Made by a program: the position numbers and the translations under genes. From Candidatus Omnitrophota bacterium (GTDB lineage Bacteria; Omnitrophota; Omnitrophia; Omnitrophales; Aquincolibacteriaceae): 64,000 nucleotides of DNA. The stretch is taken from positions 22,958-86,957 of the forward strand of contig CAISGE010000015.1 of assembly GCA_903884815.1 (NCBI GenBank). Direction: 5' to 3'. Shown piece after piece: positions 40,721 through 55,258 of the stretch (position 1 is its first letter; the number at the start of each line of letters is the position of its first letter). Below the pieces are notes generated by a model. That model saw nothing but the letters and a program-made list of their open reading frames with translations, ran no database searches and was not told where the DNA came from.

Positions 40721-40851
40721 AATCTTCGGGGGTCACGTCTATACTTGACAGAAATAAAAGACCGTGGAGAATACCCGCTTCTCAGATCTCGTTTTTGGCG
40801 TCAAATGCACTCCTGTTCTTTTATGTTCCATTTTCTCAGAGGGAAAAATAA

Positions 40852-41397
40852 ATGATACCCACCAACAAGTTTTTGAAGCTTACGGGAATTTTGCTCCTTT
40901 TGGGGGGTGTGGTTCTGGCCAGCGGTTGCGGGCAGGTTGCTTCCGAGAAGGCCCTGGAGGATGGAGCGGTTCTTGAGAAAAATGGAAAGCTTGCCGCGGC
41001 CATGGCCGAATACAACCGAGCGGCCGAGTTGAGTCCCGACAACACGAACGCTTATTATTACCGGGCGATGCTCTATCAAAAGCAAGGGAATCTGGATGCC
41101 GCGCTCGCGGATTATAACAAGATCATTGAGCTTAAGCCCGATTACAGTGATCCTTATTACGGTCGCGGCACTATCTACGACAGTAAGGGACAAAGAGACA
41201 AGGCCATTGCTGAGTACACCAAGGCTCTGGAGAATAATGTCAATAACACCCTGGCTTATTTCAAGCGCGCGAAGGCCTATGAGGCTAAGGGGGAGTACCG
41301 GAAGGCGCTCGAGGACGCTCAAAAAGCCAAGGTGCTTGGAGCTGCTGTAAAGGACGACTTCCTAAGACAACTCGAAGCGGGTGCGGCAGGACGGTGA
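40852..41397 (+). CDS. TPR-repeat lipoprotein
   Basis: Lipobox LLLGGVVLASGC. Four or more TPR units (AYYYRAMLYQKQGNLDAALADYNKIIEL...). Confidence 0.7.
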   Translation: MIPTNKFLKLTGILLLLGGVVLASGCGQVASEKALEDGAVLEKNGKLAAAMAEYNRAAELSPDNTNAYYYRAMLYQKQGNLDAALADYNKIIELKPDYSDPYYGRGTIYDSKGQRDKAIAEYTKALENNVNNTLAYFKRAKAYEAKGEYRKALEDAQKAKVLGAAVKDDFLRQLEAGAAGR

Positions 41398-41533: not shown

Positions 41534-42007
41534 TTAAATCGTGCAGCCTTTTGTGGACATGTTAGGATCGCTGTCGGGCTCAACGGCTTTGAATACTTCA
41601 AAGCAAATCCAGATCCCGGAGCCGTTGGCATCCACGTAAGCTAGCCAATTGGTAGCGGTCTCGTCGTACGCTTGGACTGAGAGGTAGCTATGAAAACCAT
41701 AGTACACATATTTCCACGCTTTTGATTTCTCAATACCCGTAAGCCCCAGATCCGCCCAATCGCCCAGAGGAGTCCCCCAAGGGTCCGACTGAATATAAGT
41801 TCCGCTGGGAGCGTCATAACTTCCGTGAAAGTCGTAGTATCTTTCCGCGGCGCGCTTGATGGCGCCGATCATCTGGATAGCCTCGGCGGCTTTTGCTTTT
41901 TCGGTCTGCATGAGCATGCGCGGGACGATAAGCGAGGCGAGGATGGCGATAATAACGACCACGATCAGAACCTCAACGAGGGTGAAGCCCTTTTTTTGAT
42001 TTTTCAC
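41534..42007 (-). CDS. type IV pilin-like protein, paralog 6
   Basis: VKNQKKG then FTLVEVLIVVVIIAILASLIVPRM. GTG start after an AGGAG RBS. Ends KGCTI. Confidence 0.75.
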   Translation of the reverse strand: MKNQKKGFTLVEVLIVVVIIAILASLIVPRMLMQTEKAKAAEAIQMIGAIKRAAERYYDFHGSYDAPSGTYIQSDPWGTPLGDWADLGLTGIEKSKAWKYVYYGFHSYLSVQAYDETATNWLAYVDANGSGIWICFEVFKAVEPDSDPNMSTKGCTI

Positions 42008-42064
42008 AGTTCCTCTCCTTATTCGGGATGATACAGTAACACCTGATATTGCTTCGTCATTCAC

Positions 42065-45985: not shown

Positions 45986-46198
45986 GTGAAAAAAAAGATG
46001 ATTTATTTTTTCTTGGTTCTTTTCGTTTTGGTTTTGGTCGGGACGCCGGTGCTTTTTGCCAAAGGAGATGATTCCTTGATCTCCGAAGAGGGATCGGGAC
46101 CTACGCTTGACCCAGGCACCGGTGGTTGGATCTTCAAGCCCTGCGGGAGTGGTGGTCGATCAGGACGATACGGGGGAAGCAGATCCTTCGGCTTTTGA
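45986..46198 (+). CDS. small secreted Gly-rich peptide (frame uncertain after residue ~50)
   Basis: Signal peptide MKKKMIYFFLVLFVLVLVGTPVLFA. An alternative acidic frame continues to 46289. Confidence 0.3.
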   Translation: MKKKMIYFFLVLFVLVLVGTPVLFAKGDDSLISEEGSGPTLDPGTGGWIFKPCGSGGRSGRYGGSRSFGF

Positions 46199-46925: not shown

Positions 46926-47348
46926 AACCTTCCTTTCCGGATAGGGGTGCCATGGTTTGAATGAAGTGTGCGGCATTCTATACGATAACTTCCCTCCGTG
47001 AAAGTCCTTCTCTTGTGCGTTAACGACCGCTGAAAGCTAGAAATCTCGTCGGATCTTTTGCGGGATCGCACGCGTAAAGCAATGTTGGGCGCCAGTTTTC
47101 GCGCGCAAAAGGCGAAAGATTTTTTTAGTGATTTTCGGGCGCGCTCATAATTTGTATAGGGAGAAAAGTTTCTTCAGCTTTTTAGTATCTCAGAGGGGCA
47201 TAAAAGTTCATGGATGGGTACATGTGTTCAAAGAAGTTGACGGAAAATATAAATGACAAAGATTGCTATATTTTTTCTGGCCTAAGGCTCTTGTAAATGC
47301 TTGATAAGAATGTTAGGCGTTTTAGTGGACGGCAGAACGAAATTAATA

Positions 47349-47546
47349 ATGGAACAGAAAATTATGAAAAACAGAAAAACGCAGATCGAAGCAAGCAATG
47401 GAAGCTACAACCCGGAAATGTTTCCTTGCCGCTCAGGGGACGCCGCGAAAAAATATCTGACGAACTCATCTCTTAGCTGGAGCCCCGCAAACGCATCCGC
47501 CGTTTCGGGGCAATTCAAATTCTCAAAGGGGGCTCGAAAAAAATGA
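47349..47546 (+). CDS. small basic ORF (65 aa) translationally coupled (ATGA) to the giant gene; may not be real
   Basis: MEQKIMKNRKTQIEASNGSYNPEMF... Stop overlaps the start of the 1394-aa gene. AT-rich codon usage. Confidence 0.25.
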   Translation: MEQKIMKNRKTQIEASNGSYNPEMFPCRSGDAAKKYLTNSSLSWSPANASAVSGQFKFSKGARKK

Positions 47547-50500
47547 AGACCATCCAGGCAAATAAAGTCATCGCGATCACGGTCGCGCTCAGTCTGGCAT
47601 TTTTCCAGATCGTCCCTGCCGGACTTGCCGCGGGGAAGACTAATCCCAGCGATTTGACTGCCCAGACGGGTGTGTCCGGTTCCGTTGATCCACTGGCCAA
47701 AACACAGGTGACGACACCGGCCGTGATTCCCGCCAATTTTTTGATGCACACAGGAGGGATTACTAAGGCGACCCCAACGACGATCCCGACGGCTGCCACC
47801 GTTGCCACGAATCTGTCGAGCAGGATCCCGGCTACGATCCGGGATTATGTCACGAAAGTTCAGGCCTTAGGATTCAAGGTAGAGGTAAGCGCGATCGCTA
47901 AAACTCAACCTCCGCAATATATCGTCAAGATGACTGATACGAAAAACTATGCCGTCACGCCGGTGGGGAACGTGAAAAGCGCCAGCATCACTCTGTTTGC
48001 CGACAGCACAGGGACTCTGCAGGTCCTTACGGAAAAGATCACCGTGACTTGCTACAGCGCCAAAGGCGGAGACACCCAGGTGAATGGCGAGCTTCTCTAT
48101 GAGGGCCTCCGGCAAATATCGGCCCAGCCCGCGTTCACCATGCTTCAGGTCAAAGTATCCAATAGCACAACCTCGGGCATGATGGTGACTTACCAGGGCT
48201 ATCAATACACGATCCAGCAGAGCAAGGACAAAAAGGTCACGACGGTCACTCCGATGATGCCCCTCGCCGTGACGAATCATATTACCTCGCTTCAGAATGC
48301 TGCGACCGGTTATACCGTGACCGCGGCTTACATCCCGGGGACTCATCCGCCGCAGTACCAGGTCGATGTCTCGGATAACAAGGCGTACTATGTTGCCCCG
48401 GTAGGGCCACTTTATGCGATGAGCTATATCCTCAGAGGCGACGGAATCGTGGACTCGAAATCCGTTTCGGCTGCGTATTACGGAATCCAGGATGACGCGA
48501 AAGTCGTCGGCCCGCTGCTTTACGAGGCGATGGGCGTCTGCCCCGAGGGACAGATATGCAAGATGGTGGCGACGAGTCCGATCGACCTTCTGAAGACACT
48601 GACGACGATCAGCGTTACAAAGGTCGAGACAAGCCCGATCTACACGGTCCATTTCACAACCACAGACGGAAAGTATTACAAGACCTACCGCGACGCGGCC
48701 GGGAAAGTGATCGTGATTGATGAAGTGGAGGCTTTACGCGCCCAGATTATGGCAAGCACCACGGCGGAGATCGTAAAGGTCATGGCCGAGCTCGCGGATC
48801 ATGAGGCAAAGCTTGCGCTTCAGCTTGCGGAATGGGAAAAGAATGTCACCCAACTGAAAGCGGATCTTGCGGCGGGGCGGGGGAACGCGGACGCAATCAG
48901 CGGGGCGGTCACGAGCTATCTGGATCAGGCAGGCGTCAGCGATGCTCTGAAAAATGAGATTCAGGGATATCTGACAAGGAGCGGAAGCTTGCTTGACGGG
49001 CTTAATGCCGCTGAAGAACAGTACGCGGCCTTTTTGAAGACGGGGGCCCGGACGACCGGGCTCGCGATAGACAACGCGAAGGCCTATCTTGCGGCTCTCC
49101 AGAATCACGAGGGGAAGGTCTCGGCCGCAAAAACAACCGAGGAATTAGCGTTGCTGACAGACCTGCCCGCCCGGAGGGCGCGGATGCCCAAAACAGTGAT
49201 GCCTCCTCCGGTGGAGGACCCGCGACTTGCTCTGAATGCGCTCGTCGAGGAAGGGAAGCTGTTAAAAGAAAAGCTGGAGGCCCTTCCGCCTCTCGCGGTC
49301 CGGGTGTTTTCGGCCCAGCTGAATACACTGCTGAACCCGGCCGGTGCAAAGAGCTTCAATATCACGGAACCGGCATTGCAGGCTGACGGGACTTATCTCG
49401 TAACCGTCAGCGACGACATTTCTCACTTGATCACGCCAACAAGTGGTTTTGAGAAAATGAGTTTCAACGTTGACGTGACGGGCAAGCTCATCCCCGCTTC
49501 GCTCGATGCTTCCTATTACGGCATCAAGCAAGTGGTCGACGGACAGCTGCTTTATGAAGGGATGAAGCTTATGGAAGAAACAGGAACCCCGGAGGGTGCG
49601 GAGGTCCGTGTCCTGGCCCGGATGGCGGCAGTCAGTGTCATCGCGGTGGTTGGTGACGCGATCTCTTTTTCTCTGACTGGAAAATATTACAAAATTTTCC
49701 GAGATGCGAATGAGCAGGTGAAGCTTGAAGCGGTGCAGACTCCGGTTACCCCGAAAATCTCTGATCAGCCCACTGGAAATCCAGAGCCGCCTCCCGCTCC
49801 GCCCGAGAGTAGTGTGGATGTTGCCACGATGCCTTTTGGGGACGGGGCAGTGGCGATCGTCAAGATCACCGATTTCCCAAGCAACAATGTTTCTTATTTC
49901 GCGAAGATCAGGGACACGAATGGCGTGGTGATCAAACAATATCAGATCGATCGCGGGGACTATACGCCTTCCGTCAGTAATTCTTCTTACGGAACTTATT
50001 ACACCTTGGCATTCAAAACCGTGGATGGAACCAGGGTCACGGTCCAACAGCTCTCAACAAGCACACCGAGCAGCACCATCGATGAAATGACCGTCGTCAA
50101 TTTCACAGGGATCGGGGATGTGTACGTCACGCAAAGTTATTCGCTCTCCCCTCAAGGACAGTGGGTCGAAACCTCTTACTCCCCAAGTTATTTTAAGACA
50201 GAAAGTGTCTGGAGTTCCAGATATAGCAGTTTGGTAAGCGTGCAATCGACTTACGTCATGGGGCCCAACGGTCTCGTCGTGAGGAACAAGAGCATCTATC
50301 CTTATTCCTATCCGGGCGGTGTTTTCACGTATCCGTTTATTCAGGAGATTACCTATGTGAATGGAGTCGCAGCCCGCGCCTCTATTTACGGATCGAATGC
50401 AACTTCGCCGGCCAATTACCTTTATTTCGACGGGTCGAAGGTCTCCGTGACCCTGGCAAGCGGTGCGCGGCAAGACTATCTCCTGAGTTCGCCGTCCATA

Positions 50501-51727
50501 GTGGAGGATTCCGAAGGTTTTGTGACGATCTCCGCGGACACAACGGTGAACGGCAAGAATTACAAGATTCAATTTGATAATGCCGGCGAGATTACGCTTT
50601 ACGAATACCCGGTTTTCGGGATTTCGGCATCCACCAAGCTCGGAGGAGCGGCCAATCTTTGGGTGAATGTCGGCGGGGATGGGAACGCAACCGTAGTCCT
50701 GGACGGCAACACCTACGCAGGGATCTTTGATCCGGTCACTAGATCGGTCTTTCTCTCCATCCCCGTCACTGGTGATGTACCCGCGCGCGAAATTTTCTTT
50801 GATTTCGAGAATGTGGACGGCGTGTACAGTCTGGTTTCTCTCTGGGATGCGACACTTTATTCAGCTTCCCTTGAAAGTGATCATGTTTATATGTTTAGGA
50901 GGGGTGAGGTGGTCCAGACGGTAGAGACGGAGGAATATTATTGGTACTTGTACACAAACAGCGTCCTGGAAGGCCAAGTTCTCCCATTGGGCGCGTATAA
51001 GTATGTGGATTCGATCACAGGCCGGAATGTATCCGGATCCATATTGTTGGTAAGTTCCGGAGACATCGCGCTGCCCCCCCCGACACTTCCCGATCAGGAG
51101 AACCTCCAGATCGTTCCGGACCCCTCGGGAGAAGGCTACCAGATCGAAGGGTCGGGTGTCATGGCCGGAGAGTCTTACGAGATCACGGGCCACGCCAGCG
51201 GAACGGATCCGGAAATGATCGGTATCCTGCTGACTTTTCGAGATGCCCAGGGACGTGTTGATCGGGAGGTCATGGAAATGCGAAGGCGAAGTGATGCGTC
51301 ATCCGAAGTGAACTATAATGAGATAATTTACTCGTTACCTACGGATATGACTTTCGAAGCAAGGCCCGCGACTGTCCCTTCCCCTGGCACAATTTCCCAG
51401 GATTATTCCGGAAATGTGCCTGTGTCAACCTGCGCTATATGTACGATTTCCACCGAAATACACGTCGCGGGCGGCTTTTGGGATCCCGTGGATGACTCAG
51501 TGCCAAAACATTCGAGACTTCCGTTTGGGATGCGTAATCCTCTTACCCCGGAACAAAGGCGTGCGGGCCGGGAAGAGTTTTACAAACTGCCCCTCAGAGT
51601 AGTGGCCGGACCTGTCGTCACCGTTGTCGAAGCCTGTCAAGCCGTAAAATCCGGATATAAACAAGCTGCATCGTTTTTTATGAGTGTATTGAAAGAAGCT
51701 GTGCAGAGCCCCACGCTCATTCCCTAA
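47543..51727 (+). CDS. giant secreted protein (1394 aa) with a novel ~90-aa module repeated three times, a central coiled coil, and Ser/Thr/Tyr-rich beta C-terminal half
   Basis: Signal peptide MKTIQANKVIAITVALSLAFFQIVPAGLAA. Repeat signature PPQY...YYG...G.LLYEGM at aa ~101-190, 247-330 and ~585-671. AAGGGGG RBS. Confidence 0.7.
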   Translation: MKTIQANKVIAITVALSLAFFQIVPAGLAAGKTNPSDLTAQTGVSGSVDPLAKTQVTTPAVIPANFLMHTGGITKATPTTIPTAATVATNLSSRIPATIRDYVTKVQALGFKVEVSAIAKTQPPQYIVKMTDTKNYAVTPVGNVKSASITLFADSTGTLQVLTEKITVTCYSAKGGDTQVNGELLYEGLRQISAQPAFTMLQVKVSNSTTSGMMVTYQGYQYTIQQSKDKKVTTVTPMMPLAVTNHITSLQNAATGYTVTAAYIPGTHPPQYQVDVSDNKAYYVAPVGPLYAMSYILRGDGIVDSKSVSAAYYGIQDDAKVVGPLLYEAMGVCPEGQICKMVATSPIDLLKTLTTISVTKVETSPIYTVHFTTTDGKYYKTYRDAAGKVIVIDEVEALRAQIMASTTAEIVKVMAELADHEAKLALQLAEWEKNVTQLKADLAAGRGNADAISGAVTSYLDQAGVSDALKNEIQGYLTRSGSLLDGLNAAEEQYAAFLKTGARTTGLAIDNAKAYLAALQNHEGKVSAAKTTEELALLTDLPARRARMPKTVMPPPVEDPRLALNALVEEGKLLKEKLEALPPLAVRVFSAQLNTLLNPAGAKSFNITEPALQADGTYLVTVSDDISHLITPTSGFEKMSFNVDVTGKLIPASLDASYYGIKQVVDGQLLYEGMKLMEETGTPEGAEVRVLARMAAVSVIAVVGDAISFSLTGKYYKIFRDANEQVKLEAVQTPVTPKISDQPTGNPEPPPAPPESSVDVATMPFGDGAVAIVKITDFPSNNVSYFAKIRDTNGVVIKQYQIDRGDYTPSVSNSSYGTYYTLAFKTVDGTRVTVQQLSTSTPSSTIDEMTVVNFTGIGDVYVTQSYSLSPQGQWVETSYSPSYFKTESVWSSRYSSLVSVQSTYVMGPNGLVVRNKSIYPYSYPGGVFTYPFIQEITYVNGVAARASIYGSNATSPANYLYFDGSKVSVTLASGARQDYLLSSPSIVEDSEGFVTISADTTVNGKNYKIQFDNAGEITLYEYPVFGISASTKLGGAANLWVNVGGDGNATVVLDGNTYAGIFDPVTRSVFLSIPVTGDVPAREIFFDFENVDGVYSLVSLWDATLYSASLESDHVYMFRRGEVVQTVETEEYYWYLYTNSVLEGQVLPLGAYKYVDSITGRNVSGSILLVSSGDIALPPPTLPDQENLQIVPDPSGEGYQIEGSGVMAGESYEITGHASGTDPEMIGILLTFRDAQGRVDREVMEMRRRSDASSEVNYNEIIYSLPTDMTFEARPATVPSPGTISQDYSGNVPVSTCAICTISTEIHVAGGFWDPVDDSVPKHSRLPFGMRNPLTPEQRRAGREEFYKLPLRVVAGPVVTVVEACQAVKSGYKQAASFFMSVLKEAVQSPTLIP

Positions 51728-51955
51728 CAGCCGAGCGTGAATTAACAGAACTCCGTCGGGGAAGTTCTGCGCAGCGTCGCACAGAGTTGATTTATAAGCA
51801 CCCTCAAACGATGGTCCCAAACAGAGAGCGCCCAGAGCGGCTGCCAGCCCCATGGCAAGCGTCCCCCAGGACGTTACTCGCGCCCGGGGCTCTTGCCACC
51901 GGCGAACTCAAGGCCTTCCAATCCGAAATCCTCCGCTTCTCCGGTGCACCCCGCC

Positions 51956-51982
51956 AATTCCGGGAATTGAATTCCCGGAATT
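51956..51982. repeat. perfect palindrome AATTCCGGGAATTGAATTCCCGGAATT (copy 2 of 3)
   Basis: Read directly. Flanked by CCAAT/ATTGG. Confidence 0.8.
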
Positions 51983-52053
51983 GATTGGTGGAGGGGATGG
52001 GGTTATAATGCGCGCGGATTCAAAACCACATTCATCCACGAAAGGAAAATATC

Positions 52054-52323
52054 ATGCGTAAACTTGTGATCGCGTTTTTTTCTTTAACGCTTATGGCGGG
52101 CAGTACGATGGCCTATGCCGCCGTTGATTGTACGAAAGATAACCCGGTCGATCAGGCGGGGGATTGGTTCGCGACGCTCGGCAAGAAGGGGATCGAGAAG
52201 GATCAGGTCCTGTCCGCGCGCAAAGGCGATCGCGTCATCGCCTGTACCAAGCGGGAAGCGGATAAGGCCATGAAGGCCGCTGGAAAAGCCGGCAATGGCA
52301 TGAAAAAGAAGCTCGGGTTCTAA
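52054..52323 (+). CDS. small secreted protein (89 aa)
   Basis: Signal peptide MRKLVIAFFSLTLMAGSTMAYA. Two Cys. Lys-rich. Confidence 0.45.
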   Translation: MRKLVIAFFSLTLMAGSTMAYAAVDCTKDNPVDQAGDWFATLGKKGIEKDQVLSARKGDRVIACTKREADKAMKAAGKAGNGMKKKLGF

Positions 52324-52415: not shown

Positions 52416-55145
52416 CTATTTGCAACTCGGATTTTTTCTCTCAGTCATCGGGTCGCCGGTTTTTTCAATGGGGCCCTTGAGATCCGTGACTTGCGCGGGC
52501 GCTAGAAGGAGCGACCCCAGCTCGAAGTCCGCGTAAGGGTCAGAGACAGCGATATAGTTGAAGGTGTAGCGGATATAGGGAGGGATGGGGATCTCGTAGA
52601 TATGCCACTCCCGGTCCGGGGGGATAACGAGCGGGATCTTTTCCCCGAGGAGTTGGTCGGATTCATGTTTTAGTTCGATATGGAAGCATTGGCAGGCATT
52701 GTCCGTGGCGTTGCGGACTTTGATATAGATATACCGGAATTTCGAAAGATTCGTGTAAGGAATATACCCGCCGCGCCATCCCGAGCCGCCCGAAAAGCGG
52801 TAGGTCCCACGCAGCGCGTCCCTCTGGAAGGGAAGGTCGCCGTGGCTTAAGCGCCAGTACCGGATCAATTCCAGTTCCGTGTCATCCTGGGGATTATTCT
52901 TGTAGGGCGGTTCCGGAACGTCCGTGAACGGGAATTTTTTATAGAGGGCGATCTCTTTGAGAACGATCGTCCCTTCGCGGCCGCCCCGGCTCATTTCACC
53001 CAACAGGTAGCGCGGATCATGGATCGCCACCGAAATATAGTTGAAAGGCTTGTCATCCGATTCCGGGATTGGCGTGATTCTCTCTACGAAAGTCTTCCAT
53101 TTTCCATCCTGAGAGATTCGTCCCGGTTTGGCGGTATTCACGACCACGGTGGCAAGGGTGATGTCGTCACTTTTGATCTCAAGCTCGTAGATGCCAGGGG
53201 GATTGAGAAGCGGCAGAGTGAGCATCACATAGCGCATGTCCGCGATGCGAACGGCCTTGTCCACATAGGTTCCCCGGAAAGCCCACTGGTCAAAGTAGGC
53301 GTAATAAGCCGGGATCTCGAATTCGAATTGAAAGGGTTGGCCCGGCTGGATATCCTGCTCGAGCGTTTTCTGGCCGACGGAGCGGACATTTTTTCCGTGC
53401 AAATGTCCCGGCTGAAGATGGGCGATCACATCATAGATCTCGCCAGCATCGGGTGGTTTCTGGAAATTGACCTGGATCACCTCTTCGGGAGGCGCGGGAA
53501 ATGGCTTGGAGGGGAAAAAAATCGGCCGATTATCGCGCGTCGCCATCATTTGCTTGTACTTCGCGTGCATGAGATCGATCAGCTTGACGTTCATGGGGAT
53601 CCCGGTTCCGGGAACGGTGCGTTCGCGGAGGTATTTATTGATCTCGTCGACCACGCCTCCGCTGGAGGCCAGGAGGGTCATGCCCTTGGCGTCGGCGGTG
53701 AAAATGTCCGCATAGCCGTCCCGGCCCACGGATTCATAACCGCCGTACGGCGTGAGGAAATTTTTAAAAGCGTAGAACTTGATCAGCCAGGACGCACCCA
53801 CGGAAGGGGAGATCAGCATTGCCATGGCGGTCGCGAAAAGCACGGCCACGTCGGTCCTGTCCACTTTTTCATACGCGATCGAGTCGATCCCCATCTGTCG
53901 ATAGATCCCTTTGGGGTCATAAGCCGTGCTGATGAAACCCGGGAGGTGGTTTCTGTGGGCGTGGTCCGCTTGGGCGTAGAGATAATTTTGATAAAGCGGT
54001 GCAAGGGCCGATTCCATGAAAGGAAGGTAAGCGAGGGCCCAGTGCTCATGGAAGGAGGCCCGGAATCCCGCGAGGGTCGTGATCTTTTCCCCCGATTCGG
54101 TGATGTATTCGATCGTGGGGATTTCCAAGTTGTCCCAGGCCTCTTCCGGGATTTGGCCGTGAAGCACACCCCACAGCACGGCGAGGGTTCCCTCGAACAT
54201 GTCGTTTAGGTAGTAAGTCTTATCCCCGCTCCATTCGCGCGCTTCGGTGTCATATTGAATGGTGCCGTGAAGTAGCTTGAGCTTTGGATCGTAGAATTTT
54301 TTGTAGCTTTGCCCGTGAAGGAACTTTTGGGCCATGCTCGCGATCTTGCGGAGCTCCGGGTCACTTGAGTCCTCAAAAGCGGCGACGACGGCGGCCAGCG
54401 CCCAGGTCATTTGGCCGTTATCAAGCGAAGGGACTTTGGTGGAGGCCGGCGCAATCGTTCCGTTCGGACGGATGTCGACCCAAGGGAGAAATCCGCCGTA
54501 GTCGGGATATTTTTCGGAATAGTTCAAAAGAGTTCTGAGGGTCTGTCTCAACTTGACGGTAGCTTCTTCGGGGGTGATCTTTACCTGGCGAAGATAGGGA
54601 TTTTTCTGAATGATCTTCATAAGAAAAGGGATCATGAGAGAAAGCTTTGAGGCAGCGGTATAATTGCCGACCTCGCTGAGCAGGTTCTCCTTAAGCCGTA
54701 TCCGGATATGGTCATAAGGCATCCCGGTATGAGAGTCCATGCCGATACCCGCCTGAAAGTAAGCGGCCTCGGAGGGGATCAGTGTTTCTTCCAGAAAAAG
54801 ACGCGCGACATCGGAAAGCGGCTGGGTCTGGCTAAGGGTGTAAAAGTCTGGCTCCGAGACAATATAATCGGGCTCTCCCGTCAAGACCTCTTGCGGGCCC
54901 CGGATCATATTGGGCGGTAAGGGGCCTCGCAGCACGAGGGAGCCGGGTTTGTAATAGAGGGGCGCTGGTTTTTTCTCAGATGGCGCTCCGGGGGCTTCCT
55001 GTGTTGAGGGCTTGGGCAAGGGGATCTCCGGAGGTACGTCCAGGGTTGTATCCTTGGAGGGGGCGGCCCATCCGGTGGGAACATTCAATAGGAGGCTTGC
55101 GACAATCCAAAGACAGATTATTTTTTTTGGGTGTTTTTGGGCCAT
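52416..55145 (-). CDS. large secreted protein (909 aa), possible (alpha/alpha)6 glycoside-hydrolase-like domain
   Basis: Signal peptide MAQKHPKKIICLWIVASLLLNVPTGWA. Central region rich in W/Y, reminiscent of six-hairpin glycosidases. Weak. Confidence 0.45.
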   Translation of the reverse strand: MAQKHPKKIICLWIVASLLLNVPTGWAAPSKDTTLDVPPEIPLPKPSTQEAPGAPSEKKPAPLYYKPGSLVLRGPLPPNMIRGPQEVLTGEPDYIVSEPDFYTLSQTQPLSDVARLFLEETLIPSEAAYFQAGIGMDSHTGMPYDHIRIRLKENLLSEVGNYTAASKLSLMIPFLMKIIQKNPYLRQVKITPEEATVKLRQTLRTLLNYSEKYPDYGGFLPWVDIRPNGTIAPASTKVPSLDNGQMTWALAAVVAAFEDSSDPELRKIASMAQKFLHGQSYKKFYDPKLKLLHGTIQYDTEAREWSGDKTYYLNDMFEGTLAVLWGVLHGQIPEEAWDNLEIPTIEYITESGEKITTLAGFRASFHEHWALAYLPFMESALAPLYQNYLYAQADHAHRNHLPGFISTAYDPKGIYRQMGIDSIAYEKVDRTDVAVLFATAMAMLISPSVGASWLIKFYAFKNFLTPYGGYESVGRDGYADIFTADAKGMTLLASSGGVVDEINKYLRERTVPGTGIPMNVKLIDLMHAKYKQMMATRDNRPIFFPSKPFPAPPEEVIQVNFQKPPDAGEIYDVIAHLQPGHLHGKNVRSVGQKTLEQDIQPGQPFQFEFEIPAYYAYFDQWAFRGTYVDKAVRIADMRYVMLTLPLLNPPGIYELEIKSDDITLATVVVNTAKPGRISQDGKWKTFVERITPIPESDDKPFNYISVAIHDPRYLLGEMSRGGREGTIVLKEIALYKKFPFTDVPEPPYKNNPQDDTELELIRYWRLSHGDLPFQRDALRGTYRFSGGSGWRGGYIPYTNLSKFRYIYIKVRNATDNACQCFHIELKHESDQLLGEKIPLVIPPDREWHIYEIPIPPYIRYTFNYIAVSDPYADFELGSLLLAPAQVTDLKGPIEKTGDPMTERKNPSCK

Positions 55146-55258
55146 GAAAGTCCGTTTCCCTATGTTGAGAGATTCGAATTTTATCATGAGGCAAAGATCC
55201 GCGGGGGAAAACAATTTTTTCAGAATAAACCTCTCGATGGGGTAGAATCCATGGGCGC

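What the first reader, a model, noticed from the sequence alone, without database searches (positions are those of the whole stretch)
46977..51727. Giant secreted protein (1394 aa) with a new thrice-repeated ~90-aa module, behind a 565-nt AT-rich intergenic region and an ATGA-coupled small ORF
After the signal peptide, the protein has three copies of a module with the signature [T/I]xPPQY...V.PVG...YYG......G.LLYEGM (aa ~101-190, 247-330, ~585-671). A coiled-coil segment and proline-rich linker follow. The C-terminal half (~600 aa) is rich in Tyr/Ser/Thr/Gly beta-strand-like segments, with no motif I recognise. The upstream region (46977-47542) is about 38% GC with no large ORF. A 65-aa basic ORF (47349-47546) ends in ATGA overlapping the giant gene's start. 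Candidates are a surface adhesin or S-layer-like protein, or a host-interaction factor, possibly horizontally acquired or H-NS-like silenced. The small ORF may be a leader or chaperone.
Basis: partly seen in the sequence, partly recalled or inferred. Interest (0 to 1): 0.6.

Follow-up and report, generated by a model that had tools for sequence, protein, structure and literature searches.

The report
Novel modular secreted Omnitrophota protein
This 1,394-residue gene encodes an exported protein built from repeated modules that match no described protein family or solved structure. It belongs to a small, undescribed family of mix-and-match extracellular proteins whose named relatives all come from uncultured, probably parasitic or predatory Omnitrophota bacteria.

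Summary
The ORF 47543-51727 (+), the three internal repeats, the long AT-rich upstream region and the ATGA-overlapping small ORF are all real. The repeat unit is about 145-155 aa, not 90: aa 95-235, 239-392 and 582-729.

Pfam, NCBIfam, PHROGs and PDB sequence searches find nothing. An exhaustive HMMER scan of 1.84 billion proteins finds 42 relatives. All are large unannotated proteins that shuffle five modules: a conserved leader N, module A, a helical module B, a beta-rich unit C, and module D. Ours reads N-A-A-B-A-(orphan)-C-(orphan).

My best reading is a Sec-exported, non-enzymatic extracellular scaffold or binding protein. This is inferred, not shown.

Horizontal transfer is not supported: the gene is 54.0% GC and the window 54.2%. 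The small ORF is not supported as a conserved protein. It lies in a long leader that shares nucleotide blocks with two relatives, including an extended -10-like box and the ribosome-binding region.

Overall this is a new domain family of a familiar kind, of moderate interest.

The parts
46977..47542 (+). 566-nt AT-rich intergenic region between EF-P (minus strand) and the large gene. Probably holds the promoter and a long 5' leader.
   Evidence: GC is 43.5% overall and 36-37% in the core, which contains the lowest 300-nt window of the 64 kb. Relatives L004 and L006 have 504- and 457-nt upstream regions at 39% and 38% GC with shared blocks. There is no Rfam match. The leader RNA folds no better than shuffles (z = +0.89).
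47249..47272 (+). Conserved upstream block ATAAATGACAAAGATTGCTATATT, containing TGCTATATT. Read here as an extended -10 promoter element (inference).
   Evidence: It aligns with L006 (..ATAAATGTTATAAATTGCTATAAA) and L004 (..GAAATGCTAGTTTTTGCTATGAA). It occurs once in the window against 0.01 expected by chance. The consensus promoter scan found no -35/-10 pair on the + strand here.
47349..47546 (+). 65-codon ORF whose TGA overlaps the ATG of the large gene (ATGA). Probably untranslated leader or a non-conserved upstream ORF, not a conserved protein.
   Evidence: The overlap is seen in the sequence. Its coding log-likelihood is 0.10 per codon, against 0.36 +/- 0.16 for real genes (5th percentile 0.12). 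It was not called in the ENA records and has no Pfam hit. The region is deleted in L004. Similarity to the L006 ORF is at nucleotide level.
47517..47546 (+). Conserved translation-initiation block AAATTCTCAAAGGGGGCTCGAAAAAAATGA. It holds a Shine-Dalgarno-like AAGGGGG (47526-47532), 10 nt before the ATG.
   Evidence: It is nearly identical in L004 and very similar in L006, although the proteins are only 28-40% identical.
47543..51727 (+). Large gene: 1394 codons plus stop. Module order is N-A-A-B-A-(orphan)-C-(orphan).
47543..47734 (+). Module N (aa 1-64). It comprises a Sec-type signal peptide (aa 1-29, likely cleaved G-L-A|A) and a conserved stretch of the mature N-terminus (GVSGSVDPLA). A further motif, FLMHTGGI, follows at aa 66-73.
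   Evidence: Hydropathy analysis. It is shared with 19 other family proteins, at 68 bits with an HMM built without this protein. Cleavage and export are inferred; no signal-peptide predictor was available.
47630..47824 (+). Thr/Ala/Pro-rich low-complexity linker (aa 30-94). It overlaps the conserved motifs of module N.
   Evidence: The first 100 residues are 17% Thr, 16% Ala and 8% Pro.
47825..48247 (+). Module A, copy 1 (aa 95-235).
   Evidence: 48 bits, E = 8e-17, with an HMM built from 83 copies in other proteins.
48257..48718 (+). Module A, copy 2 (aa 239-392). It contains the CPEGQIC loop.
   Evidence: 113 bits, E = 6e-37. AlphaFold2 gives pLDDT 96.0 and pTM 0.88. It has no PDB neighbour.
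48725..49270 (+). Module B (aa 395-576). An Ala/Leu/Glu-rich helical or coiled-coil-like module ending in LPxR...PPPxxDP.
   Evidence: 150 bits with an HMM built from 38 copies in 15 other proteins. Its profile hits only generic coiled-coil and helical-bundle chains in the PDB.
49286..49729 (+). Module A, copy 3 (aa 582-729).
   Evidence: 106 bits, E = 1e-34.
49730..49822 (+). Pro-rich linker (aa 730-760).
   Evidence: Read from the sequence.
49823..50617 (+). Beta-rich Tyr/Ser/Thr/Gly region (aa 761-1025) with no detectable homologue. It ends with the unit-C tail motif (aa 997-1020: ..VNGKNYKIQFDNAGEITLYE).
   Evidence: phmmer iteration finds no relative. The tail motif scores E = 2e-4 against the unit-C HMM. 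There are no significant internal repeats.
50627..51031 (+). N-terminal domain of unit C (aa 1029-1163), an all-beta meander.
51032..51724 (+). Orphan C-terminal region (aa 1164-1394).
   Evidence: No homologue was found among 1.84 billion representatives apart from fragments of the same population. AlphaFold2 pLDDT is below 50. There is no hydrophobic anchor and no sorting-signal model hit.

Best explanation
The gene encodes a Sec-exported extracellular protein of an uncultured bacterium, most likely of phylum Omnitrophota. It belongs to a previously undescribed combinatorial family built from five modules.

- N: a conserved signal peptide plus a short conserved mature N-terminus.
- A: a roughly 150-aa alpha/beta domain with no solved structural neighbour, present three times here.
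- B: a roughly 185-aa helical, coiled-coil-like spacer.
- C: a beta-meander unit.
- D: a roughly 300-aa module that this protein lacks.

The protein carries no catalytic domain, and module A has no invariant polar residues. I therefore read it as a non-enzymatic scaffold or binding protein displayed outside the cell. Modules A and C would be binding or spacer units, and B a rigid helical spacer. Its role would be contact with other cells or extracellular polymers.

Shown: the gene, the modules and their statistics, the family, the confident fold of module A, and the absence of known-family matches.

Inferred: export and cleavage, crossing of the outer membrane, extracellular display, a binding rather than catalytic role, and the phylum of the window itself.
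For: - Gene and signal-peptide-like N-terminus.
- Module N is shared by 20 family proteins. A similar '...VPTGWAA' leader sits on the neighbouring GH162-like ORF.
- Modules scored with HMMs built without this protein: A at 48, 113 and 106 bits; B at 150; the C N-domain at 54.5; N at 68.
- Family: 42 representatives among 1.84 billion proteins. There are 86 A copies in 31 of the 42 family proteins (this one included), 39 B copies in 16, 28 C in 12 and 24 D in 14, in many different orders.
- The closest relative (L004, 39% identity over 791 aa) keeps the N-A-A-B-A order.
- No column is invariant across 47 A copies, and the only near-invariant residues are Pro, Leu and Leu. This argues against catalysis.
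- Cysteines come in pairs: 65 of 75 copies have an even count. A C-x(3-8)-C loop is either complete (21 copies) or absent (52), and broken in only 2. This is typical of oxidising, extracytoplasmic domains.
- Relatives fuse these modules to extracellular-type domains: RHS repeat, G8 plus CEMIP beta-helix, alginate lyase, and a weak esterase match.
- The two named genomes encoding relatives are Omnitrophica/Omnitrophota MAGs. That phylum is proposed to live as predators or parasites that use large surface proteins for attachment (PMC10066038; bioRxiv 10.1101/2023.11.21.568195).
- There are no phage matches.
Against: - There is no direct evidence of localisation or binding.
- No cell-surface anchoring motif or outer-membrane secretion signal was found.
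- About 45% of the protein (aa 761-1025 and 1164-1394) has no homologue and no confident model. An unrecognised enzymatic or toxic domain could be hidden there.
- Genomic context gives no functional clue. Family genes sit among housekeeping genes.
- The enzyme fusions in relatives involve mainly module B, not A.
- The phylum of the window is inferred only from relatives.
Confidence: 0.55

Rival explanations
1. It is a polymorphic-toxin or effector-type protein. The N-terminal modules would form a delivery or presentation stalk, unit C would be an Rhs/YD-like beta structure, and the orphan C-terminal ~230 aa would be a variable toxin. The downstream 89-aa gene would encode immunity.
For: - Single RHS_repeat matches occur in relatives P0010, P0011 and the L006 protein.
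- The C-terminal region is unique to this protein, as toxin tips often are.
- A small gene follows at 52054-52323.
Against: - This protein has no RHS_repeat or toxin-domain hit at E <= 1.
- There is no full Rhs shell; relatives carry only one repeat each.
- The downstream protein has its own signal peptide and a promoter-like site plus a palindrome in a 326-nt spacer. That does not look like a coupled immunity gene.
- The C-terminal model is unreliable.
Confidence: 0.12
2. It is a structural envelope protein, an S-layer or 'coat' component that self-assembles on the cell surface.
For: - It is large and exported, with a Thr/Ser/Tyr/Gly-rich beta-rich half.
- A surface coat has been proposed for a cultured relative in this phylum (PMC10066038).
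Against: - There are no SLH or other S-layer family hits.
- The family is rare (42 representatives) and architecturally very variable, unlike a conserved lattice protein.
- There is no anchoring motif.
- Abundance is unknown.
Confidence: 0.13
3. It is a carbohydrate-binding accessory protein. Modules A and C would act like carbohydrate-binding modules, working with secreted glycan-degrading enzymes such as the adjacent GH162-like protein.
For: - Relatives carry G8 plus CEMIP beta-helix, alginate lyase and an esterase-like domain.
- The neighbouring ORF 52416-55214 (-) is recorded as SGL_GH162 and has a similar leader.
Against: - The neighbour is convergently oriented, and the adjacency is not conserved in L004 or L006.
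- Module A resembles no known carbohydrate-binding fold.
- The enzyme fusions are with module B-containing proteins.
- My own Pfam scan did not reproduce the GH162 hit.
Confidence: 0.15
4. It is a spurious or decaying ORF, or an assembly artefact.
For: - Its codon-usage score (0.17 per codon) is lower than the gene average (0.36).
- One public copy (P0001/L001) is truncated.
Against: - The 4.2-kb frame is intact and found on 25 contigs from several sources.
- L001 is 100% identical DNA with a chimeric contig end.
- Frame discrimination is strong: 0.17 in frame against -0.51 and -0.48 out of frame.
- Its modules are conserved in 41 other proteins.
- Module A folds at pLDDT 96.
Confidence: 0.01

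Closest known systems
Giant extracellular proteins of Omnitrophota: 'Archaeovorins' and dockerin-type giants (bioRxiv 10.1101/2023.11.21.568195; 10.64898/2026.06.07.730766; PMC10066038)
   Same: - Same phylum, inferred from relatives.
- Exported and repeat-rich, largely without annotated domains.
- Proposed to mediate attachment to, or degradation of, host or prey cells.
- Two family members (P0041, P0042) carry dockerin/EF-hand-like Asp-rich repeats, seen by eye.
   Different: - Those proteins are 10,000-147,000 aa, multi-pass or membrane-anchored. They are defined by HEAT, TPR, glycosyltransferase, C39-peptidase, SecA-like, dockerin or TSP3 domains.
- This protein is 1,394 aa, has a single N-terminal signal peptide and none of those domains.
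- In the parts of those papers I read, I found no description of modules N, A, B, C or D.
Large repetitive bacterial adhesins (Big/Ig-like, cadherin-like, RTX or Bap-type)
   Same: An N-terminal export signal, low-complexity linkers, tandem non-catalytic modules of 100-200 aa, and variable module number between relatives.
   Different: - No Big, cadherin, FN3, RTX, autotransporter or LPXTG model matches.
- Module A is an alpha/beta two-layer domain, not an Ig-like beta-sandwich.
- The copies are old and divergent (20-31% identity) rather than near-identical.
Rhs/YD-repeat polymorphic toxins and teneurin-like shells
   Same: Unit C is an antiparallel beta-hairpin meander. Some relatives have one RHS repeat. 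The C-terminus is variable and an orphan.
   Different: This protein has no RHS_repeat hit, no Rhs core, and no recognisable toxin or immunity pair.
PepSY / BLIP-like 'helix + four-stranded sheet' domains
   Same: - Each half of module A is a helix followed by a 4-5-stranded antiparallel sheet.
- The sequence pattern Y.V....DGK.Y..Y.D...G.V resembles PepSY hairpins. This is my own reading.
   Different: - There is no PepSY Pfam match at E <= 1.
- Module A is a fused double unit with two extra helices.
OspA-like single-layer beta-sheet proteins

Membership tests
Known adhesin or S-layer domain families (Big, cadherin, FN3, SLH, RTX, autotransporter) | A significant match to the family's Pfam or NCBIfam profile | tested here: not met
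   hmmscan of the whole protein at E <= 1 gives only three sub-threshold chance hits in Pfam and one in NCBIfam.
Rhs/YD-repeat proteins | Multiple RHS/YD repeats forming a shell, with a conserved core ending in a cleavage motif before a C-terminal toxin | tested here: not met
PepSY domain | A match to PF03413, or close structural similarity to PepSY structures | tested here: not met
Omnitrophota giant proteins (Archaeovorin or dockerin-type) | Length of at least 10,000-30,000 aa, with HEAT/TPR/glycosyltransferase or dockerin/TSP3 repeats and transmembrane anchoring | tested here: not met
   The protein is 1394 aa. The only strongly hydrophobic segments are the N-terminal signal and one stretch inside module A copy 3. 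None of those Pfam families match.
Sec-dependent exported protein (type I signal peptide) | A basic n-region, a 10-20-residue hydrophobic h-region, and small residues at -3 and -1 of the cleavage site | tested here: met
   The N-terminus reads MKTIQANK / VIAITVALSLAFFQIVPAG / LA|A, with a Kyte-Doolittle peak of 2.08. The pattern is conserved in 20 family proteins. No dedicated predictor was available, so cleavage is inferred.
New family defined here (modules N, A, B, C, D) | At least one module A (about 145 profile positions: PPAVQ..V..L...LG.GF.V ... LLFEAM ... GAI.F...GK.YK.YRD..G.V) | tested here: met
   Three copies score 48, 113 and 106 bits with an HMM built from other proteins only.
New family defined here (modules N, A, B, C, D) | The conserved leader N, and at least one further module (B, C or D) | tested here: met
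   N scores 68 bits, B 150 bits and the C N-domain 54.5 bits. D is absent.
Coiled coil (module B) | Heptad periodicity, or similarity to coiled-coil or helical-bundle proteins | tested here: inconclusive
   The profile hits only generic coiled-coil and helical-bundle PDB chains (best E = 3.6e-7). There is a weak 3.5-residue hydrophobic periodicity. No structure model was made.
Horizontally acquired island | Base composition that departs from the host genome, or flanking mobility genes or tRNA | tested here: not met
   The gene is 54.0% GC and the window 54.2%. The window has no tRNA. The neighbours are housekeeping genes.
Phage tail-fibre or receptor-binding proteins | A match to PHROGs families, or presence on viral contigs | tested here: not met
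   PHROGs gives 0 hits. The IMG/VR scan finds no relative.

The most novel reading that the evidence does not exclude
Modules N, A, B, C and D would form an Omnitrophota-specific extracellular 'construction kit' with at least one new fold (module A). The proteins would be exported through a lineage-specific leader (...SLAFLQVVPTGFAA plus the FLMNTGGIS motif) and recombined freely. The result would be a diversified repertoire of host- or prey-attachment proteins. Small upstream ORFs that end at the start codon would be dedicated regulators or chaperones. These are a Zn-ribbon protein in L007 and L009, and a 60-65-codon ORF here and in L006.
Probability: 0.25. Interest if true: 0.65.

Novelty: new variant of a known kind. 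Interest (0 to 1): 0.45.

Why it matters
Omnitrophota are widespread ultra-small bacteria thought to live as predators or parasites. How they recognise and hold on to other cells is unknown, and attention so far has gone to their enormous genes.

This finding points to a separate family of mid-sized exported proteins. They are built from at least four undescribed modules, and one of those modules has a confidently predicted fold with no solved neighbour. At 150-190 aa, the modules are small enough to express, crystallise and test for binding. That gives an experimental handle that proteins of 10,000 aa or more do not.

The result also supplies new domain definitions for a region of sequence space that current databases leave blank. 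If the proteins turn out to be ordinary structural fillers, the value is limited to annotation.

Tried and rejected
- Word-indexed homology search with the full protein found only a truncated copy from the same population.
- The same tool given the 47-copy module A profile returned nothing at E <= 1e-5. I regard this as a limitation of the tool, because the exhaustive HMMER search found 42 relatives.
- The first GTDB genome scan with the whole protein found nothing. The 47-sequence alignment was too divergent to derive search patterns. A tighter 8-sequence alignment found 4 genomic and 3 metagenomic loci through one short pattern. The distribution is therefore certainly underestimated.
- A weak PDB hit of the 3-copy profile to designed 'Bagel' beta-propellers and YVTN-type cell-surface proteins (E = 0.0015) disappeared with the 47-copy profile. 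I reject it as chance.
- The PepSY idea was not borne out.
- There are no internal repeats in the C-terminal half.
- The AFDB fold library was unavailable.
- A structured RNA in the leader is not supported: Rfam finds nothing and the fold z-score is +0.89. A possible pairing of GAGCCCC (47478-47484) with the Shine-Dalgarno region is not conserved in L006.
- A literature search for the sample identifiers found nothing relevant.
- I could not place the window taxonomically by a marker gene.
Full report
**1. The observation**

ORF 47543..51727 (+) is intact, starts with ATG and encodes 1394 aa. The identical protein is recorded on 25 public contigs from NCBI, JGI, ENA and Logan, the longest 184 kb. 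Gene callers report it in ENA metagenome assemblies named BUCK21-1. The only 'variant' (P0001, 1107 aa) is 100% identical DNA on a contig with a chimeric end.

The N-terminus has the n/h/c layout of a Sec signal peptide: MKTIQANK, then VIAITVALSLAFFQIVPAG, then LA|A, with a hydropathy peak of 2.08.

The three repeats are statistically solid.
- Smith-Waterman z-scores against shuffles are 17.4, 13.7 and 7.8.
- An HMM built only from 83 copies in other proteins scores them at 48, 113 and 106 bits.
- The true unit is aa 95-235, 239-392 and 582-729, about 145-155 aa.
- There is no DNA tandem repeat, and the copies are 20-31% identical. The duplications are ancient.

The upstream gap 46977-47542 is 566 nt and 43.5% GC, with a core of 36-37%. 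That core contains the lowest 300-nt window in the 64 kb. The 65-codon ORF 47349-47546 and its ATGA overlap are present.

**2. What the protein is made of**

Pfam, NCBIfam, PHROGs and PDB sequence searches give nothing significant.

An exhaustive HMMER search of aa 195-1394 against 1.84 billion cluster representatives found 42 proteins at E <= 1e-3, 30 of them at E <= 1e-10. They are 205-4434 aa long. Where a source names them at all, the name is 'hypothetical protein'.

Iterated HMMs within this set define the following modules (architectures).

| Module | Description | Profile length | Copies / proteins |
|---|---|---|---|
| N | conserved leader | 64 positions | in 20 proteins |
| A | alpha/beta domain | ~145 positions | 86 copies in 31 proteins |
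| B | helical | 184 positions | 39 in 16 |
| C | beta-rich unit | 347 positions | 28 in 12 |
| D | absent from our protein | 303 positions | 24 in 14 |

- Orders are highly variable, for example A-A-A-A-A, B-B-D-B-B-D-D-B-B and N-C-C-A-A-A-A-D-A.
- Our protein reads N (aa 1-64), A, A, B (aa 395-576), A, then a Pro-rich linker (aa 730-760).
- Next comes an orphan beta-rich stretch (aa 761-1025) that ends in the unit-C tail motif.
- Then follow the unit-C N-domain (aa 1029-1163) and an orphan C-terminus (aa 1164-1394).
- The closest relative is encoded on L004. It is 39% identical over 791 aa and keeps the N-A-A-B-A order.

**3. Structure**

AlphaFold2 on copy 2 of module A, using a 47-copy alignment, gives pLDDT 96.0 and pTM 0.88. 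The layout is helix, five strands, two helices, four strands.
- Foldseek finds nothing at E <= 1e-3, and TM scores are 0.30 or less.
- The module A profile finds nothing in PDB sequences.

Across 47 copies no column is invariant, and only Pro, Leu and Leu are nearly so. This argues for a structural or binding domain rather than an enzyme.

Cysteines are paired. Counts per copy are 0, 2 or 4 in 65 of 75 copies. A C-x(3-8)-C loop after LLFEAM is complete in 21 copies, absent in 52 and broken in 2. This fits an oxidising, extracytoplasmic location.

Module B's profile hits only generic coiled-coil and helical-bundle chains.

**4. Who has it, and where**

A pattern-based scan of GTDB species representatives found four loci.
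- Two titles name Omnitrophica or Omnitrophota MAGs; the other two read 'uncultured bacterium'.
- Three more loci came from JGI metagenomes, and none from viral contigs.
- The window's own phylum is inferred from this, and from shared leader and upstream blocks. It was not shown with a marker gene.

Context is not conserved.
- Here the gene lies between EF-P and a small secreted protein plus a GH162-like ORF.
- In L004 and L006 it follows LptF/G and a ComF-like gene.
- L006 continues with HisRS, AspRS, PhoH and RecO.

These are stand-alone genes among housekeeping genes.

Relatives fuse the modules to an RHS repeat, G8 plus CEMIP beta-helix, alginate lyase and a weak esterase match. All of these are extracellular-type functions.

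**5. The upstream region and the small ORF**

L004 and L006 also have long AT-rich upstream gaps: 504 nt at 39% GC and 457 nt at 38% GC. The alignment shows two shared blocks.
- ATAAATG..A...ATTGCTATAWW at 47249-47272. It is unique in the window against 0.01 expected by chance. It contains TGnTATAWT, which I read as an extended -10 promoter. That is an inference, and it would imply a leader of about 260 nt.
- The initiation block AAATTC..AAGGGGGC.CGAAAA..ATGA.

The leader shows no Rfam match and no excess folding energy (z = +0.89).

Evidence on the small ORF:
- Its coding score is 0.10 per codon. That is below the 5th percentile of real 65-codon windows (0.12) and well above the off-frame mean (-0.43).
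- It is uncalled in public records.
- Its region is deleted in L004.
- L006 has a 60-codon ORF at the same position that also ends in ATGA. The similarity is no better in frame than out of frame (scores 36 vs 39). BLASTP gives E = 0.012, driven by the residues that overlap the ribosome-binding block.

I conclude it is not a conserved protein. A position-dependent upstream ORF cannot be excluded, and one observation keeps that possibility open. L007 and L009 carry a different, genuinely conserved Zn-ribbon-like small ORF that stops 1 nt before the family gene's ATG. The two are 34% identical, E = 2e-13, with CxxC...CPEC.

**6. Interpretation**

My best reading is an exported, non-catalytic scaffold or binding protein of an Omnitrophota bacterium, and a member of a new combinatorial family (confidence 0.55). 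Published proposals that Omnitrophota are predators or parasites using large extracellular proteins for contact with other cells give a plausible setting (PMC10066038; bioRxiv 10.1101/2023.11.21.568195 and 10.64898/2026.06.07.730766). Those papers describe different, far larger proteins with different domains.

Rivals that remain open, because 45% of the protein is uncharacterised:
- polymorphic toxin (0.12)
- S-layer or coat protein (0.13)
- carbohydrate-binding accessory to secreted glycanases (0.15)

An artefact is excluded. Horizontal acquisition is not supported: GC is 54.0 vs 54.2%, and there are no tRNA or mobility genes nearby.

**7. Verdict**

The object is a familiar kind, a modular exported repeat protein, and its function is still inferred. 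I rate novelty as a new variant of a known kind and interest as moderate (0.45).

Noticed in passing
window 52416-55214 (-): The neighbouring 909-932-aa ORF is recorded in the public gene calls as PF26157 SGL_GH162, a beta-1,2-glucanase family. My own Pfam scan found no family at E <= 1, perhaps because the local Pfam copy lacks that model. Its N-terminus (KKIICLWIVASLLLNVPTGWAAP) weakly matches the family leader HMM (E = 4e-4). This hints at a lineage-typical '...VPTG[FW]AA' signal peptide.
   Followed up: partly
window 51955-51983: A perfect palindrome, CAATTCCGGGAATT-g-AATTCCCGGAATTG, lies in the GC-rich 326-nt spacer after the large gene. It overlaps by 3 nt the start of a promoter-like site (TTGATT-17-TATAAT, 51981-52009), upstream of the 89-aa secreted-protein gene at 52054-52323. 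It looks like an operator.
   Followed up: no
L007 about 406-657; L009 about 756-1010 (also L010): A conserved ~83-aa Zn-ribbon-like small ORF (CxxC...CPEC) stops 1 nt before the ATG of the family gene in these loci. The two copies are 34% identical, pairwise E = 2e-13. It is not homologous to the window's small ORF.
   Followed up: partly
L009 114-533 and 925-6954 (same in L010): Two family genes lie in tandem. The end of one, with a module A, is followed about 480 nt later by an N-A-A-D-A...B gene. This suggests local paralogue expansion in some genomes.
   Followed up: no
window 45986-46198 (+): An uncalled 70-codon ORF with a signal-peptide-like start and a Gly/Ser/Arg-rich tail lies in the AT-rich gap between the nitroreductase gene and EF-P. 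Its coding score is marginal, 0.13 per codon.
   Followed up: no
Family proteins P0005, P0011, P0015, P0022, P0034, P0040 (C-termini): A subset ends in a shared C-terminal motif, [AI]F.FE[KR]G.LLF....TE[LV]T[KRE]. Another subset ends in Lys-rich tails. The window protein's end (..AASFFMSVLKEAVQSPTLIP) resembles the first motif only vaguely. This could be a sorting or secretion signal.
   Followed up: no
Family proteins P0011 and P0026: By eye, both contain an HExxH stretch (HELSHTMDY and HEMGHLIDY) in a shared unannotated region. It may be a metallopeptidase-like domain that Pfam did not detect.
   Followed up: no
window 40801-41322 (-) and about 41534-42064 (-): Two prepilin-type N_methyl proteins lie 5-7 kb upstream of the large gene (gene calls). 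This fits the type IV pilus or type II secretion-like machinery reported for Omnitrophota.
   Followed up: no
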